From sequence record NC_025447.1: a stretch of DNA of 64,000 nt. The stretch is one strand, 5' to 3'. The translations under genes and the position numbers were made by a program. How positions within the stretch are numbered: the stretch's first letter is position 1; each line of letters opens with the position of its first letter. The notes below the pieces were generated by a model. That model was not told the origin of the DNA, searched no databases, and saw only the letters and a list, made by a program, of their open reading frames with translations. Shown one piece after another: positions 29,568 through 55,905 of this stretch. This DNA is from Escherichia phage 121Q.

Positions 29568-30332
29568 TTAATCCTTTAATAATATGTTAAAATTATCATA
29601 AAAGTACTTTTTTAGTACCGAAATATAGTCTTCATTATACTTCAATCGAAGTAAATTTATTCCATTCTCGGTGCAGTACGTGTTTTTAATTTTATCATTG
29701 TGTTGAGTTTGTTTTAGTGATTTTGTTCCACCCCAATGCTCTGAACATTGAAAATGTTGTTCACCATCATATTCGATACACAAGTTTAAATCTTCAATAT
29801 AAAAATCAAATGGCAATGTTAAAATATTCTTACAATTATCAAATCTCTTTTCTCTAACATATTTAAATGAAGATAATATATTTTCTATATCTGATACTGC
29901 CTTGGATTGAGTACTATCTCTCATACATTTTTCACACCCGTATCTACTATTCAAGTGATTATCAGGTCGCTGGTAGAATATACCATGTATTGGACAAATT
30001 ATTGATATATGTGTTTTATTATTAACATAATTAGCCATACTATAATCAAATTTATTTTTAAATTTAAAATTGGCTTTTTTCTTGAAATTTAAAAAATTAT
30101 GTGGACTTTTTTGCCTATTTGTATTATATTCAATAGAACATTTCATGCATCCTTTGCCACATGTATGGTCATTTGGTGTTTGTAGAAAAAATCCATGTTT
30201 TGCACAGCCAATCCATACTTTTGTTTTAGCATTATGATATTTAACCATACTATAGTCATATCGTATACCATGAACTTTTATCGCATTGGTTACAAATTTA
30301 TATTTTGTCGATCTAGTGGTTGCATATTTCAT
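29568..30332 (-). CDS. Homing-endonuclease-like protein: two zinc-ribbon repeats plus C-terminal PD-(D/E)XK-like motif
   Basis: 254 aa; repeats KVWIGCAKHGFFLQTPNDHTCGKGCMKC and HISIICPIHGIFYQRPDNHLNSRYGCEKC; C-terminal FDFYIEDLNLCIEYDGEQH. Inserted between baseplate genes. Confidence 0.5.
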   Translation of the reverse strand: MKYATTRSTKYKFVTNAIKVHGIRYDYSMVKYHNAKTKVWIGCAKHGFFLQTPNDHTCGKGCMKCSIEYNTNRQKSPHNFLNFKKKANFKFKNKFDYSMANYVNNKTHISIICPIHGIFYQRPDNHLNSRYGCEKCMRDSTQSKAVSDIENILSSFKYVREKRFDNCKNILTLPFDFYIEDLNLCIEYDGEQHFQCSEHWGGTKSLKQTQHNDKIKNTYCTENGINLLRLKYNEDYISVLKKYFYDNFNILLKD

Positions 30333-49905: not shown

Positions 49906-51021
49906 ATGTCTAAATTAGAAAAGCTTCTAAAAGAATCATCTCTTTCTGATGAGGCAAAACAGCTAATTCAGGAAGCATGGAATGAAGAAAAGAATACACT
50001 AGCCGCAGAGATGCGTGAAGAAATGAAAGGCCGTTATCAGCAAGATTTGGCTGAACTAACCGAAGGTTTGAACACTATGGTTACTCAAGTCATTGCTGAA
50101 GAAATGGGTGCTGTATATGAAGAGAAAAAACGTCTCGTTGAAGATCGTGTAACTCTACGTAAAACACTAAGCAATTTCTCTGCGTTTTCAAACTCTGTTT
50201 TGGCTGAAGAAGTTAAACAAATGCGTAAAGAACGTAAGCATCTTCATGAATGCATGGGTAAATTCGTTAATTTTTCTAACGGTATCCTAGCAGAAGAGCT
50301 AAAAGAATTCCACACTGAAAAACGCCAACTAGTAGAAACTCGCGTTAAACTACTTGCTGAAGGTTCACGTCAAATTGCTGAAGCTCGTAATAACTTCATC
50401 AAACGTACATCTGAAAGTGCTGCTAAATATATTGCAGAAACCACTCAGAAGAATCTATATGCGTTGAAACAAGATCTAGTGGAAGCAAAACAAAATATGT
50501 TTGGTCGTAAAATCTTTGAAGCATTTGCTCAAGAGTTTAATGTCAAACAATTTAATGAAAACTCATTGCTACGTTCCCTAACTGAATCAATTAAATCTAA
50601 AGAAGATGAAATTGCTCAAGTTAAGCAAGAACTACATGAAACTGCTAATGCCGTTAAAGCTGCTAAAACCAAACTACGTATTATGGAAGATGCACAAGCA
50701 CGTAATGCGATTATGTCTGAACTAGTAAAACCACTAACTGCACAGCAAAAACAAATTATGGAATCCCTTCTAGCTACTTCACCTACTGAAAAGCTTAAAG
50801 AAGATTTCAGCAAGTACCATAAGTCAGTACTTAACGGTACTAAAGTAAATGAATCTGCTACCACTCGTCAAGCAGTTCAGTCTTCCGCTAAGAAAACTCT
50901 TGCAGAAGGTAAAGTAATCACTGGCAACCGTCAGGCTATTGTTGAAAGCGAAGAAATGACCGCTGACGATATGGCATTCCTAAAAGAACTAGATGTTCTT
51001 TCAGGTATCAATAAAAAATAA
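49906..51021 (+). CDS. Prohead scaffold protein (T4 gp22-like)
   Basis: 371 aa, Glu/Lys/Ala/Leu-rich and predicted alpha-helical; sits between the protease and major capsid genes. Confidence 0.6.
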   Translation: MSKLEKLLKESSLSDEAKQLIQEAWNEEKNTLAAEMREEMKGRYQQDLAELTEGLNTMVTQVIAEEMGAVYEEKKRLVEDRVTLRKTLSNFSAFSNSVLAEEVKQMRKERKHLHECMGKFVNFSNGILAEELKEFHTEKRQLVETRVKLLAEGSRQIAEARNNFIKRTSESAAKYIAETTQKNLYALKQDLVEAKQNMFGRKIFEAFAQEFNVKQFNENSLLRSLTESIKSKEDEIAQVKQELHETANAVKAAKTKLRIMEDAQARNAIMSELVKPLTAQQKQIMESLLATSPTEKLKEDFSKYHKSVLNGTKVNESATTRQAVQSSAKKTLAEGKVITGNRQAIVESEEMTADDMAFLKELDVLSGINKK

Positions 51022-51059
51022 ACATTTTAAAGCATTTTAATAATCAAATTTTTCAGTTC

Positions 51060-51067
51060 TATAAATA
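51060..51067 (+). promoter_or_regulatory. T4-type late promoter TATAAATA upstream of the major capsid gene
   Basis: TATAAATA at 51060-51067, 45 nt upstream of the ATG at 51113; the extended motif TAAATAATATCATACT recurs upstream of 48335. Confidence 0.5.
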
Positions 51068-51112
51068 ATATCATACTGAAAAACGAATATAACATCTTTA
51101 AGGAGATATATA

Positions 51113-52288
51113 ATGTCACAACTACTAAATGAATCCAAATGGGTAGCAGTAAAAGAGAAACTAGTTGAAGGTCTACAGGGTACTCGTAAGTCTGTAATGG
51201 AAACTGTTCTTGATAACCATCGTAAAGTTATGCTAACTGAATCCGCAACTTCTGGTGCAACTACCGCTGGTAACATCGCTACTCTAAACAAAGTGATTCT
51301 ACCAATTATGCGTCGTGTAATGCCAACCGTTATTGCTAACGAAATCATCGGTGTTCAACCTATGACTGGTCCAGTTGGTCAGATCCACACCCTACGTGTA
51401 CAATATGCTGATAACGCACCTGGTGTAATCGCTGGTGAAGAAATGCTTTCTCCATACAAAATCGCTAAATCTTACTCTGGTGATCTAAATGCGGATAATA
51501 GCAACCCACAAGCTGCTCCTACTAGCCAACTAGAAGGTACTATGGGTCGTCGCGTTAACATCCGTATTCTACGTGAAACTGTTGAAGCGAAATCTCGTCG
51601 TCTATCTGCACGTTGGACTGTTGAATCTGCACAAGATGCTCAATCCCAACATGGTGTTGACGTTGAAGCAGAACTAATGGCTGCAATCGCTCAAGAAGTT
51701 ACTGTAGAAATCGACCAAGAGCTACTAAGCCGTCTACGTGCACTACCTGGTGCTGCTGCTGTAACTTATGACCAATCTAAAGTTACTGGTGTTGCAACCT
51801 TCGTTGGTGATGAGCACGCTGCTCTAGCTACTCTAATTAACCGTCAAGCAAACGAAGTTGCTCGTCGTACTAAGCGTGGTGCTGCAAACTGGGCTGTTGT
51901 TTCCCCAACTGCACTAACCATTCTACAATCTGCTACTACTTCTAGCTTTGCACGTACCACTGAAGGTACTTTTGAAGCACCAACTAACGTTAAGTTTGTA
52001 GGTACTCTAAACAGCACTATGCGTATTTTCGTTGATACCTATGCTAGTGATGCAGAAGATATTCTAATTGGTTATAAAGGAAATGCGGAAACTGATGCTG
52101 GTGTATTCTATTGCCCATACATCCCACTAATGGCTTCCGGTACTGTAATGGACCCTAACACTGGGGAACTCGTTACAACTTTCTTAACCAGATACGGGTA
52201 TGTTCAGTTGACCGATAGCACCAGTTCACTAGGTAACGCTGCGGACTACTACAGCAAAATCGCTATCAAAAACGTTACTTTCATGTAA
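51113..52288 (+). CDS. Major capsid protein (T4 gp23-like)
   Basis: RVMPTVIANEIIGVQPMTGPVGQIHTLRVQY and RILRETVEAKSRRLSARWTVESAQDAQSQHGVDVEAEL align with T4 gp23 (RRAIPNLIAFDICGVQPMNSPTGQVFALRAVY; RIDKQVIEAKSRQLKAAYSIELAQDLRAVHGMDADAEL) as recalled. Confidence 0.9.
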   Translation: MSQLLNESKWVAVKEKLVEGLQGTRKSVMETVLDNHRKVMLTESATSGATTAGNIATLNKVILPIMRRVMPTVIANEIIGVQPMTGPVGQIHTLRVQYADNAPGVIAGEEMLSPYKIAKSYSGDLNADNSNPQAAPTSQLEGTMGRRVNIRILRETVEAKSRRLSARWTVESAQDAQSQHGVDVEAELMAAIAQEVTVEIDQELLSRLRALPGAAAVTYDQSKVTGVATFVGDEHAALATLINRQANEVARRTKRGAANWAVVSPTALTILQSATTSSFARTTEGTFEAPTNVKFVGTLNSTMRIFVDTYASDAEDILIGYKGNAETDAGVFYCPYIPLMASGTVMDPNTGELVTTFLTRYGYVQLTDSTSSLGNAADYYSKIAIKNVTFM

Positions 52289-52333
52289 TTGTAATAGATT
52301 TAAAAGATTTAATCAAAAAAAATAAAAACAAAA

Positions 52334-52360
52334 GGGACTCTTCGGAGTCCCTTTTCTTTT
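52334..52360 (+). terminator. Rho-independent terminator after the major capsid gene
   Basis: GGGACTC-TTCG-GAGTCCC followed by a T-run. Confidence 0.7.
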
Positions 52361-52434
52361 TATTAAAAAACCCTTTACACAATGTTCTGGAATGTATATA
52401 ATACGCACATACACGAAAATAAAGAGACAAAATT

Positions 52435-53532
52435 ATGCCAAACGTAAGTATCAACAAAGAAGAGTTTATCAGCAAAATGACTGCTAAGTATGGTGAATTT
52501 GATTTCAGTACTTTAGTATTCAAAGCAAGTAAAACAACTGTGAAATGTAACAAGTGTGGAAAAGAAAACATAAAATCTGCACTTCGTCACATTGCATGTA
52601 CATGTGCATCATGTTATTCAAACATGTCGCAACGTTCAAACAACGACACATTCATCAGCACGGTAGAAAATAAATTTGGTAAAGATAAATTCAAATTTGA
52701 TAAACTAAATTACACTAACGCTATAACAAAAGTAACACTCTTTTGCACTGATGAAGAGCACAACGATTACTTTGAAATAACACCAAACAAATTTCTTTCT
52801 GGTAAGGGATGTCCTGTGTGTAATAAAAATGAAGCATACAGTACTGAATCATTCACTGCAAAAGTAAAAGAAAACTATGGTGATGCATTGGATTTGACAA
52901 ATACTGTTTATGTCAATCAGAAAACTAAAGTAACGGTTCATTGCACAAAAGGACATCACGACTGGACAGTAGATCCAAAAACTTTAATCGTCGGTAAAAC
53001 TGGCTGTGGTACATGCTCTGGTAAAGGTGGACGAAGTACTGAGCGTTTCATTGAACTAGTATCACCAATTCATAACCATAAGTATGATTATAGCTTGGTG
53101 GATTATACAACAAGTGAGAAGTATGTGGATATTGTGTGTCCGACGCATGGTGTTTTTTCCCAACAACCAAAAGCACATATGGCGGGTAAAGGATGTCCAT
53201 CATGTGGTGAATATGGATATCAACCATCAAAACCTGGATATTTCTATGTTCAAAAACTAACTAACAATGACAAGACGGTGTACAAATATGGAATCACTGG
53301 TGATATGAAACGCCGTGTAAACGAACAAAGTCGTAATTCTGGGTTCGAACATGAAGTACTAGTAGAACGCTACTTTGAAGATGGAAATCAACCATTACTG
53401 TTGGAAAAGTTCATAAAGAAATACATTGAAAGTGGAGTAGTAAGTACTGAAGAGTTGCCGTCAGGATTTACTGAAACGTTTGATGAAAAGTATCTAAAAT
53501 CTGTACTGGAAATTGTAAATAACTTTAAGTAA
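52435..53532 (+). CDS. Homing-endonuclease-like protein: three zinc-ribbon repeats plus C-terminal GIY-YIG/T5orf172-like domain
   Basis: 365 aa; repeats ...CTDEEHNDYFEITPNKFLSGKGCPVC, ...CTKGHHDWTVDPKTLIVGKTGCGTC, ...CPTHGVFSQQPKAHMAGKGCPSC; C-terminal GYFYVQKLTNNDKTVYKYGITGDMKRRVNEQ. Confidence 0.5.
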   Translation: MPNVSINKEEFISKMTAKYGEFDFSTLVFKASKTTVKCNKCGKENIKSALRHIACTCASCYSNMSQRSNNDTFISTVENKFGKDKFKFDKLNYTNAITKVTLFCTDEEHNDYFEITPNKFLSGKGCPVCNKNEAYSTESFTAKVKENYGDALDLTNTVYVNQKTKVTVHCTKGHHDWTVDPKTLIVGKTGCGTCSGKGGRSTERFIELVSPIHNHKYDYSLVDYTTSEKYVDIVCPTHGVFSQQPKAHMAGKGCPSCGEYGYQPSKPGYFYVQKLTNNDKTVYKYGITGDMKRRVNEQSRNSGFEHEVLVERYFEDGNQPLLLEKFIKKYIESGVVSTEELPSGFTETFDEKYLKSVLEIVNNFK

Positions 53533-53546
53533 ACAATCTAAAGGAG

Positions 53547-53906
53547 TTGACACGGATGTTAACTGTATACAAATTTAATAGAGAAGAGTACTTAAAGAGT
53601 CAGTACTCAAACATAGAAATAAATGTTCCTTATGGGACATTAGTTGGTTATGATGAATCCACCGAAACTTTATATTATAATGATGATAGATTGGATTATA
53701 GTTTAGATTCTTTTATAGAAGATATACTAAACACACATACTGAAGATATGTTATATGAAGAATACATAGATCATTATAGGGAACGTATGTCACAATTACA
53801 CTCGGACGCTCCAGTACTAAACATTACACAAGAACCTTCTGAATTTCAGCCCCATAATCCTTTTCAACGTTTAATAGATATTGGTTTGAAATTCACTATT
53901 AGTTGA
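53547..53906 (+). CDS. Hypothetical protein
   Basis: 119-aa ORF with GGAG ribosome-binding site inside the endonuclease island. Confidence 0.35.
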   Translation: MTRMLTVYKFNREEYLKSQYSNIEINVPYGTLVGYDESTETLYYNDDRLDYSLDSFIEDILNTHTEDMLYEEYIDHYRERMSQLHSDAPVLNITQEPSEFQPHNPFQRLIDIGLKFTIS

Positions 53907-53927
53907 TAGATAAATATCTCCATATTA

Positions 53928-54254
53928 ATGATGGAGATTGAATCTATGTCACAGATATGTTATGTTATAATAAATTCTGCATGGCCTGAGTATGTTAAAA
54001 TTGGTTTTACTTCAAAATCAGAAATGACAGAACGTCTAAGAACGTATCAGACTGCTACACCATTTCGTGACTTTGAAGTATATCATGAAGTTCATTTTGA
54101 TGACGCACGTTTAGCTGAAAAAGAGATACATAAAAGGCTTAAACAAATGAATGCAACTAGACAACCAAACACGGAGTGGTTTAAAATGTCTAAAAAGATA
54201 GCAGCAAACATCATTGATTCTGTGTGGGATGATATGGATAACGACTTGCTATAG
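53928..54254 (+). CDS. GIY-YIG/T5orf172-like domain protein
   Basis: 108 aa; CYVIINSAWPEYVKIGFTSKSEMTERLRTYQT fits the pattern of a hydrophobic strand, then KIG-T, then a conserved Arg. Confidence 0.45.
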   Translation: MMEIESMSQICYVIINSAWPEYVKIGFTSKSEMTERLRTYQTATPFRDFEVYHEVHFDDARLAEKEIHKRLKQMNATRQPNTEWFKMSKKIAANIIDSVWDDMDNDLL

Positions 54255-54294
54255 GAATAAATATAGTATATATTAATCATAAAGGGATTTATAC

Positions 54295-55905
54295 ATGAGC
54301 ATAAGTTTTAATAACCCATTGGATACAATGACCAGTACTGGTGCTAATGGATCTTTAGAACTAATAGTGCTTGGTGGTACACCAACTAACCCAAGACCTA
54401 TTCGTTTTAATTCGTCATCAGTTATTATACCAGTACAAACGTTACCTACTGGTGAACAAGGTGCAATGGTTTTTGATCGAAACGAATTAGTTTTGAAGTA
54501 TCATAACGGTACAAGTTGGATTGCAGTATACGATACTGATACTATTTTGGAACCAATTAGAATTTCATTAGATGAAGTAAACAGAAAATTAAATTTAAAA
54601 GTAGAAAGTGTAACATACAGTAGTAGTACTGTTCCTAGTGCAAGTATTAGTGGAACAAACTTAAACATTGTATTCCCTACTGCTTCTAGTGGTGGTTCTG
54701 GTCCAACTGGTCTTTACACTTCACTTAAACCAGGTGCTATTACACAATATTCATTGACTTCTGGTCAATCTGTTGCTAGTATACGTGAACAAATGTCAGG
54801 ACAATCGAATGGACAAAGTGGGAGAAACGGTTCACAAGGTGCTCCGTGGAAAACGTCTGACGGTTGGTGTTTTGCTGATGGTATGTGGTGGCAATGGGAG
54901 GGGGAAAATGGTACAATTACCAAACAAGTACCAAACCTTAACCAAAACGCGTACTTAAAAGGGATATCCACATCAGGTGTAACTAAAACTGATAGTGTTA
55001 TTGGTAGTAGCGGTAATATTAGCGGCACAGTATTAAGTGTTGCCCAATTACCATCACACTCATTTAGTTTTAGTGGGACCACAGGGGCTGCTGGTCGTCA
55101 TGGTCATAGTCAAGCACTAAAAGGTATGGACCGTAGTGGTCTAAATGCGTTAACTTCAAGTAATGATAACGGTATACCAACTGTAATCAATAACATTAAC
55201 GAAGCACCAGACCACATTCACTCATTTAGTGGAAACACTAACACACTTGGTGGAAACCAACCACACTATCATGGTATTAGTAACATTGATGTGGAACACT
55301 TTAACGTTGCATATCTATATAACATTGCTGAATCTAACGTCGCATTGAGTGAAAAAGTTGCAAACACTCGTTATGTACTAAAAACTGGTGATACAATGAC
55401 TGGTTCATTGACTATTGCAAACAGTGCGTCAATTAAGTCAAATGATACATCATTAGTTCTATATTTCCGTAACGCAAGCGGTGGTGAGCGTGCGGCAGTG
55501 TATCATAACTCTTCAAATAATACATTGAGATTACGTTCCGGTGGAGCAGAAGTTACTGTAAACTCTTCTGGTACTTTAGCTGCTCCATCATTAACTGTTT
55601 CTAACAACTCAGCTACTGTTGGTGGTAAAAATATTGTTCGTTCAATTAACGGTACTGCTGCTGATGCTAGTGGCAACGTTACTTTGCAAATTAGTACTAA
55701 TAACGTACAAAGTATTCGTTTGAGTGCACGTATTGAAACAAGTAAAATACCTGATTCTTCATGGACATATACACCAGAAGGTGCATTTATGGATGGCGTA
55801 TGGATTTCTGTTAATGGTAGTTCAGGCACTCACTTAGAACGAATTAGTTATCGCTATGTTCAAATGCAAATAAATGGTAACTGGGAAACAGTACGTCAAC
55901 AATAA
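54295..55905 (+). CDS. Tail-fiber-like protein with His-rich (HxH) motifs
   Basis: 536 aa, Ser/Thr/Gly/Asn-rich; SHSFSFSGTTGAAGRHGHS and DHIHSFSGNTNTLGGNQPHYHGIS resemble metal-binding HxH motifs of T4 fiber tips. Confidence 0.45.
   Translation: MSISFNNPLDTMTSTGANGSLELIVLGGTPTNPRPIRFNSSSVIIPVQTLPTGEQGAMVFDRNELVLKYHNGTSWIAVYDTDTILEPIRISLDEVNRKLNLKVESVTYSSSTVPSASISGTNLNIVFPTASSGGSGPTGLYTSLKPGAITQYSLTSGQSVASIREQMSGQSNGQSGRNGSQGAPWKTSDGWCFADGMWWQWEGENGTITKQVPNLNQNAYLKGISTSGVTKTDSVIGSSGNISGTVLSVAQLPSHSFSFSGTTGAAGRHGHSQALKGMDRSGLNALTSSNDNGIPTVINNINEAPDHIHSFSGNTNTLGGNQPHYHGISNIDVEHFNVAYLYNIAESNVALSEKVANTRYVLKTGDTMTGSLTIANSASIKSNDTSLVLYFRNASGGERAAVYHNSSNNTLRLRSGGAEVTVNSSGTLAAPSLTVSNNSATVGGKNIVRSINGTAADASGNVTLQISTNNVQSIRLSARIETSKIPDSSWTYTPEGAFMDGVWISVNGSSGTHLERISYRYVQMQINGNWETVRQQ

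What the first reader, a model, noticed from the sequence alone, without database searches (positions are those of the whole stretch)
52435..54254. Homing-endonuclease-like gene island directly downstream of the major capsid gene
Three consecutive small genes follow the capsid terminator. One has three zinc-ribbon repeats (C..H....P..H..GKGCPxC) plus a GIY-YIG/T5orf172-like C-terminus, and another is a stand-alone GIY-YIG-like protein. Freestanding homing endonucleases commonly insert next to highly conserved genes. This is a likely mobile insertion and a hotspot for strain variation.
Basis: partly seen in the sequence, partly recalled or inferred. Interest (0 to 1): 0.5.

Follow-up and report, generated by a model that had tools for sequence, protein, structure and literature searches.

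The report
Homing endonuclease beside capsid gene
Only the first of the three genes after the capsid gene is a mobile, selfish nuclease gene of an already described phage type; the other two are old resident genes of this jumbo-phage group, so the finding is real but largely ordinary.

Summary
The window comes from an Asteriusvirus (PBECO4/121Q-like) jumbo coliphage. The three ORFs exist as described, with small corrections. Gene 1 (52435-53532, 365 aa) has four tandem treble-clef zinc-finger modules, not three, followed by a C-terminal T5orf172/GIY-YIG nuclease domain. It sits in a 1.19-kb cassette that carries its own sigma70-like promoter, inserted just after the capsid-gene terminator.

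In close relatives the same slot is empty. Elsewhere it holds at least five other occupants, one of which is an unrelated PD-(D/E)XK-type nuclease. All 11 database phages carrying this gene-1 allele share a synonymous haplotype in the last ~150-200 bp of the capsid gene, whatever their genomic backbone. That is a co-conversion signature of homing.

Genes 2 (53556-53906) and 3 (53946-54254) are not part of the mobile unit. They are syntenic, single-copy and under purifying selection in every relative examined across several genera. Gene 3 is a 102-aa stand-alone T5orf172 domain with intact catalytic residues. A late-promoter-like box and a conserved hairpin covering its ribosome-binding site precede it, as in T4 endonuclease genes.

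Verdict: a new member of the known class of T5orf172 homing endonucleases (Barth et al. 2023). Cleavage and homing were not tested.

The parts
51113..52288 (+). Major capsid protein gene (Gp23 family). This is the conserved neighbour next to which the endonuclease cassette sits.
   Evidence: Pfam Gp23 1.3e-89. phrog_138 major head protein 1.4e-98.
52106..52288 (+). Capsid-gene 3' tract whose synonymous haplotype is linked to this endonuclease allele (inferred co-conversion tract). It is the candidate region for the cleavage or immunity site.
   Evidence: Window vs PBECO4 has 41 mismatches in the last 450 nt of the gene plus 75 nt downstream, clustered at 52030-52243, with the two capsid proteins 100% identical. 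The 11 records with the 365/368-aa allele are exactly the 11 with >=90.7% identity to 52140-52300. The last 200 nt are 92.5-99.5% identical in allele carriers on 88-99.8% backbones, and ~90% in all non-carriers.
52330..52362 (+). Intrinsic terminator of the capsid gene. It marks the left edge of the variable slot.
   Evidence: An 11-bp stem plus T-run. It is conserved in all relatives, and sequences diverge immediately after it.
52362..53555 (+). Endonuclease cassette: the segment present here and replaced by 46 bp in empty-site phage PBECO4.
   Evidence: BLASTN junctions are window 52361/53556 against PBECO4 L001 2861/2908. The slot is also empty in fEgEco12, the Salmonella SD phages, Serratia BF, Yersinia fHe-Yen9-04 and Hallingskeid.
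52374..52402 (+). Sigma70-like promoter carried by the cassette (TTTACA-17-TATAAT).
   Evidence: 11 of 12 consensus matches. A TTGACA/TATAAT-like pair occupies the same place in the UB, SP27, slurp01 and E9.1 cassettes. Function is inferred.
52435..53532 (+). Gene 1: free-standing T5orf172-type (GIY-YIG superfamily) homing endonuclease, 365 aa.
   Evidence: phrog_681 endonuclease 9.8e-79. Model pLDDT 86.9. dN/dS 0.07-0.14.
52456..53214 (+). Four tandem treble-clef zinc-finger modules (aa 8-63, 70-132, 137-197, 201-260), presumed to be the DNA-recognition array.
   Evidence: Pfam DUF4379 27.4 bits (cut-off 24.5), plus sub-threshold DUF723 and CapR hits. Self-alignment. Invariant Cys. Blockwise identity among alleles falls to 62-88% in modules 3-4, which indicates module exchange.
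53230..53529 (+). C-terminal T5orf172/GIY-YIG nuclease domain of gene 1 (aa 266-365).
53516..53521 (+). TAAATA box inside the last codons of gene 1, 34 nt before the gene-2 ATG. It may replace the late-promoter-like box (CTAAATAC) that precedes gene 2 in empty-site phages.
   Evidence: Read directly from the sequence. This is a 6-mer in AT-rich DNA, so it is weak evidence.
53556..53906 (+). Gene 2: conserved resident gene, 116 aa, acidic (pI 4.4), no Cys, SH3-like barrel plus helix, function unknown.
53908..53938 (+). Late-promoter-like box (GATAAATAT) followed directly by a hairpin (ATCTCCAT-N7-ATGGAGAT) whose 3' arm contains the gene-3 Shine-Dalgarno sequence.
   Evidence: The same layout occurs with different stem sequences in seven divergent relatives (z = -1.7 to -4.5).
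53946..54254 (+). Gene 3: conserved stand-alone T5orf172 nuclease-domain protein, 102 aa, with no DNA-binding domain.
   Evidence: Pfam T5orf172 6.7e-13 and MUG113 1e-12. 32 orthologue clusters, all 100-108 aa. Invariant Y6, K18, G20, T22, R30, E58, E60, E77, W78, N88. 70-80% aa identity across genera. dN/dS 0.03-0.14.

Best explanation
Gene 1 is a free-standing homing endonuclease gene of the T5orf172 branch of the GIY-YIG superfamily. It sits in a 1.19-kb cassette inserted between the capsid-gene terminator and gene 2.

Proposed mechanism (inferred, by analogy with T4 Seg endonucleases and the ICP1 T5orf172 genes). The cassette's own sigma70-like promoter drives expression. The four zinc-finger modules read a long, asymmetric DNA site. 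The C-terminal GIY-YIG-type domain cuts a co-infecting relative that lacks this allele, most likely in or near the 3' end of its capsid gene. Recombinational repair then copies the cassette, together with the last ~150-200 bp of the donor's capsid gene, into the cut genome. The carrier is protected by the synonymous differences in that tract.

Repeated rounds, invasion by other endonuclease genes at the same slot, and exchange of zinc-finger modules between alleles make this the most mosaic stretch of the structural module.

Genes 2 and 3 are ancestral residents, not cargo. Gene 3 is a fixed nuclease-domain-only T5orf172 protein, probably translated only from late transcripts that begin inside the hairpin masking its ribosome-binding site. 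Its cellular role is unknown. A late DNA-processing or structure-specific nuclease is the most plausible guess.
For: Domain plan and fold.

Variable slot: it is empty in PBECO4, fEgEco12, the Salmonella SD phages and three other genera. It holds the 365-aa allele in 11 records. It also holds 364-, 332-, 307-, 306- and 304-aa T5orf172 relatives, and a 552-aa DUF7487+REase_MTES_1575 protein in UE-S1.

Exact indel: 52362-53555.

Transfer between lineages with flanking DNA: carriers on backbones only 84-88% identical overall (WPEC3, Turkey3, EcMJ, BF17, A4) are 95.5-98.5% identical to the window in the last 200 nt of the capsid gene. In contrast, 97-99% backbone relatives without this allele are ~90% identical there.

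All window-PBECO4 differences in the capsid gene leave the protein identical. The endonuclease gene is under purifying selection with catalytic residues kept. No intron or other RNA family is present.

Resident status of genes 2 and 3. Hairpin plus late box before gene 3.

Published parallels: T5orf172 endonuclease genes with repeated CapR/DUF723/DUF4379 fingers, often near capsid genes, with domain shuffling (PMC10448857). T4 co-conversion, promoters embedded in endonuclease genes, late-promoter/hairpin control, and segD next to gene 23 (PMC2988022).
Against: No cleavage, target site or homing has been shown for this protein or, according to PMC10448857, for any phage T5orf172 homing endonuclease gene in a cross.

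Only one position (52213) separates all carriers from all six non-carriers compared. phAPEC6 and SP27 carry the gene with a largely PBECO4-like tract, so the linked haplotype is a gradient rather than a clean immunity signature.

Gain versus loss cannot be assigned for each lineage. Promoter, late box and transcript starts are sequence inferences. ATAAATA is not over-represented in the window as a whole (10 plus-strand copies in 64 kb).
Confidence: 0.8

Rival explanations
1. One reading: all three genes form one mobile island, with two nucleases plus cargo, inserted downstream of the capsid gene.
For: The three genes are adjacent and two carry T5orf172-type domains. Sequence divergence among close relatives extends through genes 2 and 3. 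dS between the window and PBECO4 is 0.58 and 0.31 there, against 0.04 in the tail fibre gene.
Against: Genes 2 and 3 are present, in the same order and single-copy, in every relative, including four other genera whose slot is empty. The indel ends at the gene-2 ATG. Gene 3 is as conserved as the prohead protease and scaffold. WPEC3 shares the endonuclease and capsid tract with the window but keeps its own lineage's genes 2-3 at 80-83% identity.
Confidence: 0.05
2. Gene 1 is a domesticated DNA-binding regulator or phage-versus-parasite weapon (like the satellite repressor CapR or the ICP1 nuclease Odn) rather than a self-propagating element. On this view the slot variation reflects ordinary recombination and deletion.
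For: The zinc modules give sub-threshold CapR-domain hits. CapR represses a capsid operon, and endonuclease-derived domains are recruited in phage-satellite conflicts (PMC8096241; PMC10448857). The gene is intact and under purifying selection in all carriers, whereas many homing endonuclease genes decay.
Against: The nuclease domain and its catalytic residues are retained, whereas CapR lacks them. The gene is dispensable, since close relatives lack it. It moves between backbone lineages with flanking capsid sequence. Unrelated nuclease genes occupy the same slot.
Confidence: 0.1
3. The resident gene 3 (possibly together with gene 2), rather than gene 1, is the nuclease that makes breaks here and turns the locus into a recombination hotspot. 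On this view gene-1-type cassettes are opportunistic passengers.
For: Gene 3 keeps all catalytic residues across genera. The mosaic zone is centred on genes 2-3 as much as on gene 1, and includes haplotype swaps unrelated to slot occupancy (the window's genes 2-3 match slurp01/CRJP21, while its endonuclease matches UB).
Against: Gene 3 has no recognisable DNA-binding domain. The cross-lineage linkage is between the gene-1 allele and the capsid tract, not genes 2-3. Nothing ties gene 3 to a specific site.
Confidence: 0.05

Closest known systems
T5orf172 homing endonuclease genes of vibriophage ICP1 and other phages (Barth, Dunham & Seed 2023, PMC10448857)
   Same: Both have N-terminal tandem CapR/DUF723/DUF4379 zinc fingers plus a C-terminal T5orf172 domain. 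Both are free-standing, vary between close isolates, often lie near capsid genes (31% of neighbourhoods) and show module shuffling.
   Different: This one is in Rak2-like jumbo coliphages, which that paper does not mention. Sequence identity to the Vibrio phage members is only ~28-31%. Here a single slot shows an allelic series plus a cross-lineage co-conversion tract.
T4 Seg endonucleases (free-standing GIY-YIG), especially segD between genes 23 and 24, and segG (PMC2988022)
   Same: Both are free-standing GIY-YIG-superfamily genes in intergenic DNA next to essential genes, including the gp23-type capsid gene. Both show co-conversion or marker exclusion of flanking sequence, carry promoters for the downstream gene inside the endonuclease gene, and can be replaced by a different endonuclease at the same site.
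   Different: Seg proteins have the classical GIY-YIG motif at the N-terminus and different DNA-binding domains. Here the nuclease domain is C-terminal and of the T5orf172 subtype, with four zinc modules. This cassette also carries its own promoter and lies in the same orientation as its neighbours, unlike segD.
Late-promoter/hairpin translational control of T4 I-TevI, I-TevII, I-TevIII, segB and Aeh1 mobE (PMC2988022)
   Same: Before gene 3, a TATAAATA-like box abuts a hairpin that sequesters the Shine-Dalgarno sequence, so only transcripts starting inside the hairpin should be translated.
   Different: Here the controlled gene is a fixed, clade-wide, DNA-binding-domain-less nuclease rather than a variable homing endonuclease gene. 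Transcript starts have not been mapped.
Stand-alone or partner-dependent GIY-YIG nucleases: SLX1, UPF0213/EF2693-type proteins, T4 endonuclease II; and the conserved Uri/T5orf172 proteins of 'group 2.2' jumbo phages, proposed to act in recombination (Iyer et al. 2021, PMC7824862)
   Same: Gene 3 is a ~100-aa nuclease domain with no appended DNA-binding domain. The related domain in gene 1 superposes best on SLX1. A recombination or junction-resolving role has been proposed for such jumbo-phage proteins.
   Different: No structural model was made for gene 3 itself. There is no sequence-level match to any solved structure. No partner or substrate is known. I did not confirm that gene 3 is one of the two proteins cited in that paper.
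PLE CapR and ICP1 Odn (PMC8096241, PMC8263062)
   Same: They share the zinc-finger DNA-binding module family. Odn shares the T5orf172 nuclease domain.
   Different: CapR has no nuclease domain and is a repressor. Odn is a chimeric anti-satellite nuclease. Nothing here points to a satellite target.

Membership tests
T5orf172 / GIY-YIG superfamily nuclease domain (gene 1) | Match to Pfam PF10544 at or above the gathering score | tested here: not met
   18.5 bits against a 20-bit cut-off, covering only the N-terminal half of the profile. At family level, 22 of 48 aligned full-length homologues match T5orf172/MUG113, best 1e-10, and the SHEFM2K slot occupant scores 26 bits.
T5orf172 / GIY-YIG superfamily nuclease domain (gene 1) | GIY-YIG alpha/beta fold | tested here: met
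T5orf172 / GIY-YIG superfamily nuclease domain (gene 1) | Conserved catalytic Tyr, Arg and metal-binding Glu | tested here: met
   Y271, R294 and E347 are near-invariant and E324 invariant in 48 homologues. The mapping to I-TevI residues rests on general knowledge of the family, not on a residue-level structural alignment.
T5orf172 / GIY-YIG superfamily nuclease domain (gene 1) | Endonuclease activity | not testable with these tools
   This needs purified protein and DNA substrates.
Free-standing homing endonuclease gene (gene 1) | Presence or absence at the same site among closely related genomes | tested here: met
   The slot is empty in PBECO4, fEgEco12 and the Salmonella SD phages, and filled in 11 records with this allele and in others with different alleles.
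Free-standing homing endonuclease gene (gene 1) | Own ORF in intergenic DNA, not inside an intron or intein | tested here: met
   It lies between the capsid terminator and gene 2. No group I/II intron or other Rfam family was found in 50900-54600.
Free-standing homing endonuclease gene (gene 1) | Horizontal spread with co-conversion of flanking markers | tested here: met
   The capsid 3' tract tracks the endonuclease allele, not the backbone lineage. This is inferred from natural genomes, not from crosses.
Free-standing homing endonuclease gene (gene 1) | Site-specific cleavage of the allele-free genome and super-Mendelian inheritance in mixed infection | not testable with these tools
   This needs cleavage mapping and phage crosses.
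Treble-clef zinc-finger DNA-binding modules (DUF4379/DUF723/CapR group) | Pfam match above threshold and conserved metal ligands | tested here: met
   DUF4379 scores 27.4 bits against a 24.5 cut-off. DUF723 at 20.3 and CapR at 17.5 are below their cut-offs. Nine Cys of modules 2-4 are invariant. 41 of 48 homologues match DUF4379. Zinc and DNA binding were not tested.
T5orf172 domain family (gene 3) | Pfam PF10544 above the gathering score, with catalytic residues conserved | tested here: met
   49.5 bits against a 20-bit cut-off, and MUG113 at 49 bits. Y6, K18, G20, R30, E77 and N88 are invariant in 27 orthologues.
Homing endonuclease gene (gene 3) | Variable presence among relatives and a DNA-recognition domain | tested here: not met
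   One copy is present at 70-100% identity in relatives from several genera, and it was found in all 22 loci examined. dN/dS is 0.03-0.14. All 32 orthologue clusters are 100-108 aa, nuclease domain only.
Nuclease (gene 2) | Any nuclease family or fold match | tested here: not met

The most novel reading that the evidence does not exclude
Gene 3, perhaps working with the fast-evolving SH3-like gene 2, is an ancient homing-endonuclease remnant that became fixed and domesticated in the whole GAP32/PBECO4/Eneladusvirus jumbo-phage clade. It has lost its DNA-recognition array but kept both its catalytic centre and the T4-style late-only translational switch. It now serves a late DNA-processing function, for example debranching before packaging. 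In parallel, the neighbouring slot provides a natural allelic series of zinc-module swaps paired with synonymous capsid-gene haplotypes, from which the recognition rules of these fingers could be read.
Probability: 0.25. Interest if true: 0.55.

Novelty: new member of a known kind. Interest (0 to 1): 0.33.

Why it matters
This locus shows that T5orf172 endonuclease genes, so far studied mainly in ICP1 and other vibriophages, also shape the structural module of Rak2-like jumbo coliphages being isolated for therapy.

One intergenic slot next to the capsid gene holds at least six different states in near-identical phages, and drags the end of the capsid gene between lineages. This has practical consequences. 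Capsid-gene phylogenies and typing amplicons that include the last ~200 bp will be misled. The locus is also a ready natural system for mapping the target and specificity of multi-finger T5orf172 enzymes.

The conserved stand-alone T5orf172 gene with an endonuclease-style late translational switch is a tractable candidate for a domesticated nuclease.

Tried and rejected
- Sequence searches of solved structures with gene 3 alone and with its family profile found nothing meaningful.
- NCBIfam had no model for any of the three proteins.
- PADLOC gave only domain-level hits for gene 3 (PDC-S57, PD-Lambda-1), which I do not read as a defence system.
- BLASTP between the gene-1 nuclease domain and gene 3 found no alignment. 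Profile-profile comparison was weak (E 0.017, probability 2.6%), although it lined up the conserved K-x-G, Arg and Glu positions. Gene 1's nuclease domain is therefore not a recent copy of gene 3.
- MAFFT could not align the gene-3 leader hairpins in register. I therefore report per-sequence folds and shuffling z-scores, not formal covariation counts.
- A strict search for capsid-tract positions separating all carriers from all non-carriers gave only one site (52213). No target site can be named.
- Rfam found no intron or known RNA.
Full report
**Where the window comes from.** The 5.5 kb around the finding matches 61 phage records. The best is Escherichia phage UB at 97.5% over the full length, followed by other Asteriusvirus (PBECO4/121Q-like) jumbo phages of ~350 kb. 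The gene order is prohead protease, scaffold, Gp23-type major capsid protein (51113-52288), the three genes of the finding, tail fibre (54295-55905), tail-fibre assembly protein, a small ORF, and family-B DNA polymerase.

**The observation.** The three ORFs are there. Gene 1 (52435-53532, 365 aa) matches phrog_681 'endonuclease' at 9.8e-79. In Pfam it hits the treble-clef zinc finger DUF4379 above threshold, DUF723 and CapR below threshold, and T5orf172 just below threshold (18.5 vs 20 bits).

Self-alignment shows four ~60-aa modules, not three. The first is a CxxC...CxxC variant and the other three are C-x3-4-H...CxxC. In an alignment of 48 homologues the module 2-4 cysteines are invariant. 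In the C-terminal domain G268, Y271, K284, G286, R294 and E347 are near-invariant and E324 invariant. Twenty-two of those homologues hit Pfam T5orf172/MUG113, best 1e-10.

Gene 3 (best start ATG 53946, 102 aa) matches T5orf172 at 6.7e-13. Gene 2 (best start ATG 53556, 116 aa) has no family beyond phrog_15724 'unknown'.

**What is mobile and what is not.** Against PBECO4, homology runs to window 52361 (just past the capsid terminator) and resumes at 53556, the ATG of gene 2. The 1194 bp in between replace 46 bp in PBECO4. Annotated relatives show the slot in many states:
- Empty: PBECO4, fEgEco12, four Salmonella SD phages, Serratia BF, Yersinia fHe-Yen9-04 and Erwinia Hallingskeid.
- The 365/368-aa allele: 11 records.
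- Related T5orf172 proteins of other lengths: EJP2 (364 aa), SHEFM2K (332 aa), slurp01 group (307 aa), E9.1 (306 aa) and Munch (304 aa).
- An unrelated 552-aa protein in UE-S1, with DUF7487 and a PD-(D/E)XK-type REase_MTES_1575 domain.

Genes 2 and 3 follow in every case. Gene 3 is single-copy, and 70-80% identical in protein between genera. That is comparable to the prohead protease (69-85%) and scaffold (67-71%), and higher than the tail fibre at 46-60%. Its dN/dS is 0.03-0.14. Gene 2 evolves fast (26-37% identity) but is still under purifying selection. A search of 5.8 billion proteins found only 32 gene-3 clusters, all 100-108 aa, several on ~350-kb contigs. Gene 2 has 18 hits among 1.84 billion representatives. 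The mobile unit is therefore gene 1 with its promoter, not the trio.

**Evidence for homing-type spread.** Among phages that are 99-100% identical to the window over the scaffold gene, most of the capsid gene and the tail fibre gene, identity drops to 76-93% from about 52040 to the slot, and to 73-96% through genes 2-3.

The window and PBECO4 differ at 41 positions in the last 450 nt of the capsid gene plus 75 nt downstream, yet the capsid proteins are identical. A query of 52140-52300 ranks 62 records. The top 11 (90.7-100%) are exactly the 11 that carry the 365/368-aa allele, and every other record is at or below 89.4%.

Five of those carriers (WPEC3, Turkey3, EcMJ, BF17, A4) belong to backbones only 84-88% identical overall (88-93% in the scaffold segment), but are 95.5-98.5% identical in the last 200 nt of the capsid gene. 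Non-carriers on a 99.8% backbone are ~90% identical there.

On the other side, WPEC3 keeps its own lineage's genes 2-3 (80-83%). The shared tract is thus asymmetric and extends leftwards, which points to a cut site in or near the capsid 3' end (inference). The endonuclease gene itself is a mosaic of 60-nt blocks from 62 to 100% identity, with the sharpest breaks in zinc modules 3-4. This matches the module exchange described for this family.

Caveats:
- Only one site (52213) strictly separates all carriers from the six non-carriers compared.
- phAPEC6 and SP27 carry the gene with a largely PBECO4-like tract.

**Expression signals (inferred).** The cassette begins with TTTACA-17-TATAAT at 52374-52402 (11/12 consensus). 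A TTGACA/TATAAT-like pair occupies the same position in the other T5orf172 cassettes.

ATAAATA boxes resembling T4 late promoters lie 25-45 nt upstream of the protease, scaffold, capsid, gene 3 and tail fibre genes. The motif is not over-represented overall, so only its placement is suggestive.

Empty-site phages have CTAAATAC before gene 2. In carriers, a TAAATA lies within the last codons of gene 1, 34 nt before gene 2. This echoes the T4 cases where promoters for downstream genes sit inside seg and mob genes (PMC2988022).

**The gene-3 leader.** Directly after the box GATAAATAT (53908-53916) comes a hairpin, ATCTCCAT-N7-ATGGAGAT (53916-53938). Its 3' arm contains the GGAG Shine-Dalgarno sequence 9 nt before the ATG.

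The same layout, with different stem sequences, is found in the EcMJ/fEgEco12 type, A4, EJP2, Munch, Hallingskeid and Serratia BF/Yersinia fHe-Yen9-04. Dinucleotide-shuffle z-scores are -2.4, -4.1, -3.95, -4.5, -3.7, -3.55 and -1.7.

This is the arrangement described for T4 I-TevI, I-TevII, I-TevIII, segB and Aeh1 mobE. Long transcripts sequester the ribosome-binding site, and late transcripts that start inside the structure are translated (PMC2988022). I infer late-only translation of gene 3. Transcript ends are not known.

**What genes 2 and 3 may do.** In Pectobacterium phage CBB the capsid protein is CBB_257 and the tail fibre CBB_260. The passage of the virion mass-spectrometry table retrieved lists both, with nothing between them (PMC5259590). 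If synteny holds, the gene-2 and gene-3 counterparts were not detected in particles. I did not check the CBB locus directly.

Iyer and colleagues noted conserved Uri/T5orf172 endonucleases in 'group 2.2' jumbo phages and proposed a recombination or junction-resolving role (PMC7824862). The best structural neighbours of the related domain in gene 1 are SLX1-type structure-specific nucleases. A late DNA-processing role for gene 3 is therefore plausible but untested.

Gene 2 models as an SH3-like barrel plus helix (pLDDT 82), with only weak, generic structural neighbours.

**Comparison with what is known.** The architecture (tandem CapR/DUF723/DUF4379 fingers plus T5orf172), the location near capsid genes, the variability between isolates and the domain shuffling are all described for T5orf172 endonuclease genes by Barth, Dunham and Seed (PMC10448857). 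That paper does not mention the Rak2-like jumbo phages. The CBB genome paper lists only HNH endonucleases for that group.

T4 itself has a GIY-YIG gene, segD, next to gene 23. This is therefore a new member of a known kind.

What goes beyond the published pattern is modest:
- A clear multi-allelic slot with a cross-lineage co-conversion tract.
- A neighbouring clade-wide stand-alone T5orf172 gene with endonuclease-style translational control.

**Verdict.** Interest is about 0.33.

Noticed in passing
window 53908-53948: A late-promoter-like box (GATAAATAT) is followed directly by a hairpin that sequesters the gene-3 Shine-Dalgarno sequence. The layout is conserved with different stem sequences in seven divergent relatives. 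It matches the T4 I-TevI/segB type of late-only translational control.
   Followed up: yes
window 29568-30332 (- strand): A second endonuclease-like gene (254 aa; DUF723 zinc finger plus a sub-threshold DUF2726 PD-(D/E)XK-like domain) lies between the baseplate hub/lysozyme and baseplate wedge genes. It is present in only 2 of 47 matching records (JP4 and JNE01). The other listed relatives, including UB and PBECO4, are about 740 bp shorter there.
   Followed up: partly
L005:2881-4539 (Escherichia phage UE-S1): The same post-capsid slot holds a 552-aa protein of a different nuclease class (DUF7487 plus sub-threshold REase_MTES_1575). Unrelated endonuclease genes therefore use one landing site.
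   Followed up: partly
window 53516-53521: A TAAATA box lies inside the last codons of gene 1, 34 nt upstream of gene 2. Empty-site relatives have CTAAATAC before gene 2. This may be an embedded replacement promoter, as in T4 segG/gene 32.
   Followed up: partly
window 49192, 49852, 51061, 53910, 54257: ATAAATA motifs lie 25-45 nt upstream of the protease, scaffold, capsid, gene 3 and tail fibre starts. They are candidate late promoters of this phage group. The motif is not over-represented in the window as a whole.
   Followed up: partly
window 53578-54105: The window's genes 2-3 carry a haplotype close to slurp01/CRJP21 (96-97% identity), while its endonuclease and capsid tract are UB-like. 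UB's genes 2-3 are only 90-95% identical. The first ~100 nt of gene 2 (53578-53681) has substitutions seen in none of the 13 relatives in that alignment.
   Followed up: partly
window 54228-54251 (gene 3 C-terminus): Gene 3 orthologues all end in a conserved acidic tail with a hydrophobic tip (DDxxN/GDLL). This is reminiscent of protein-interaction tails, but no partner was identified.
   Followed up: no
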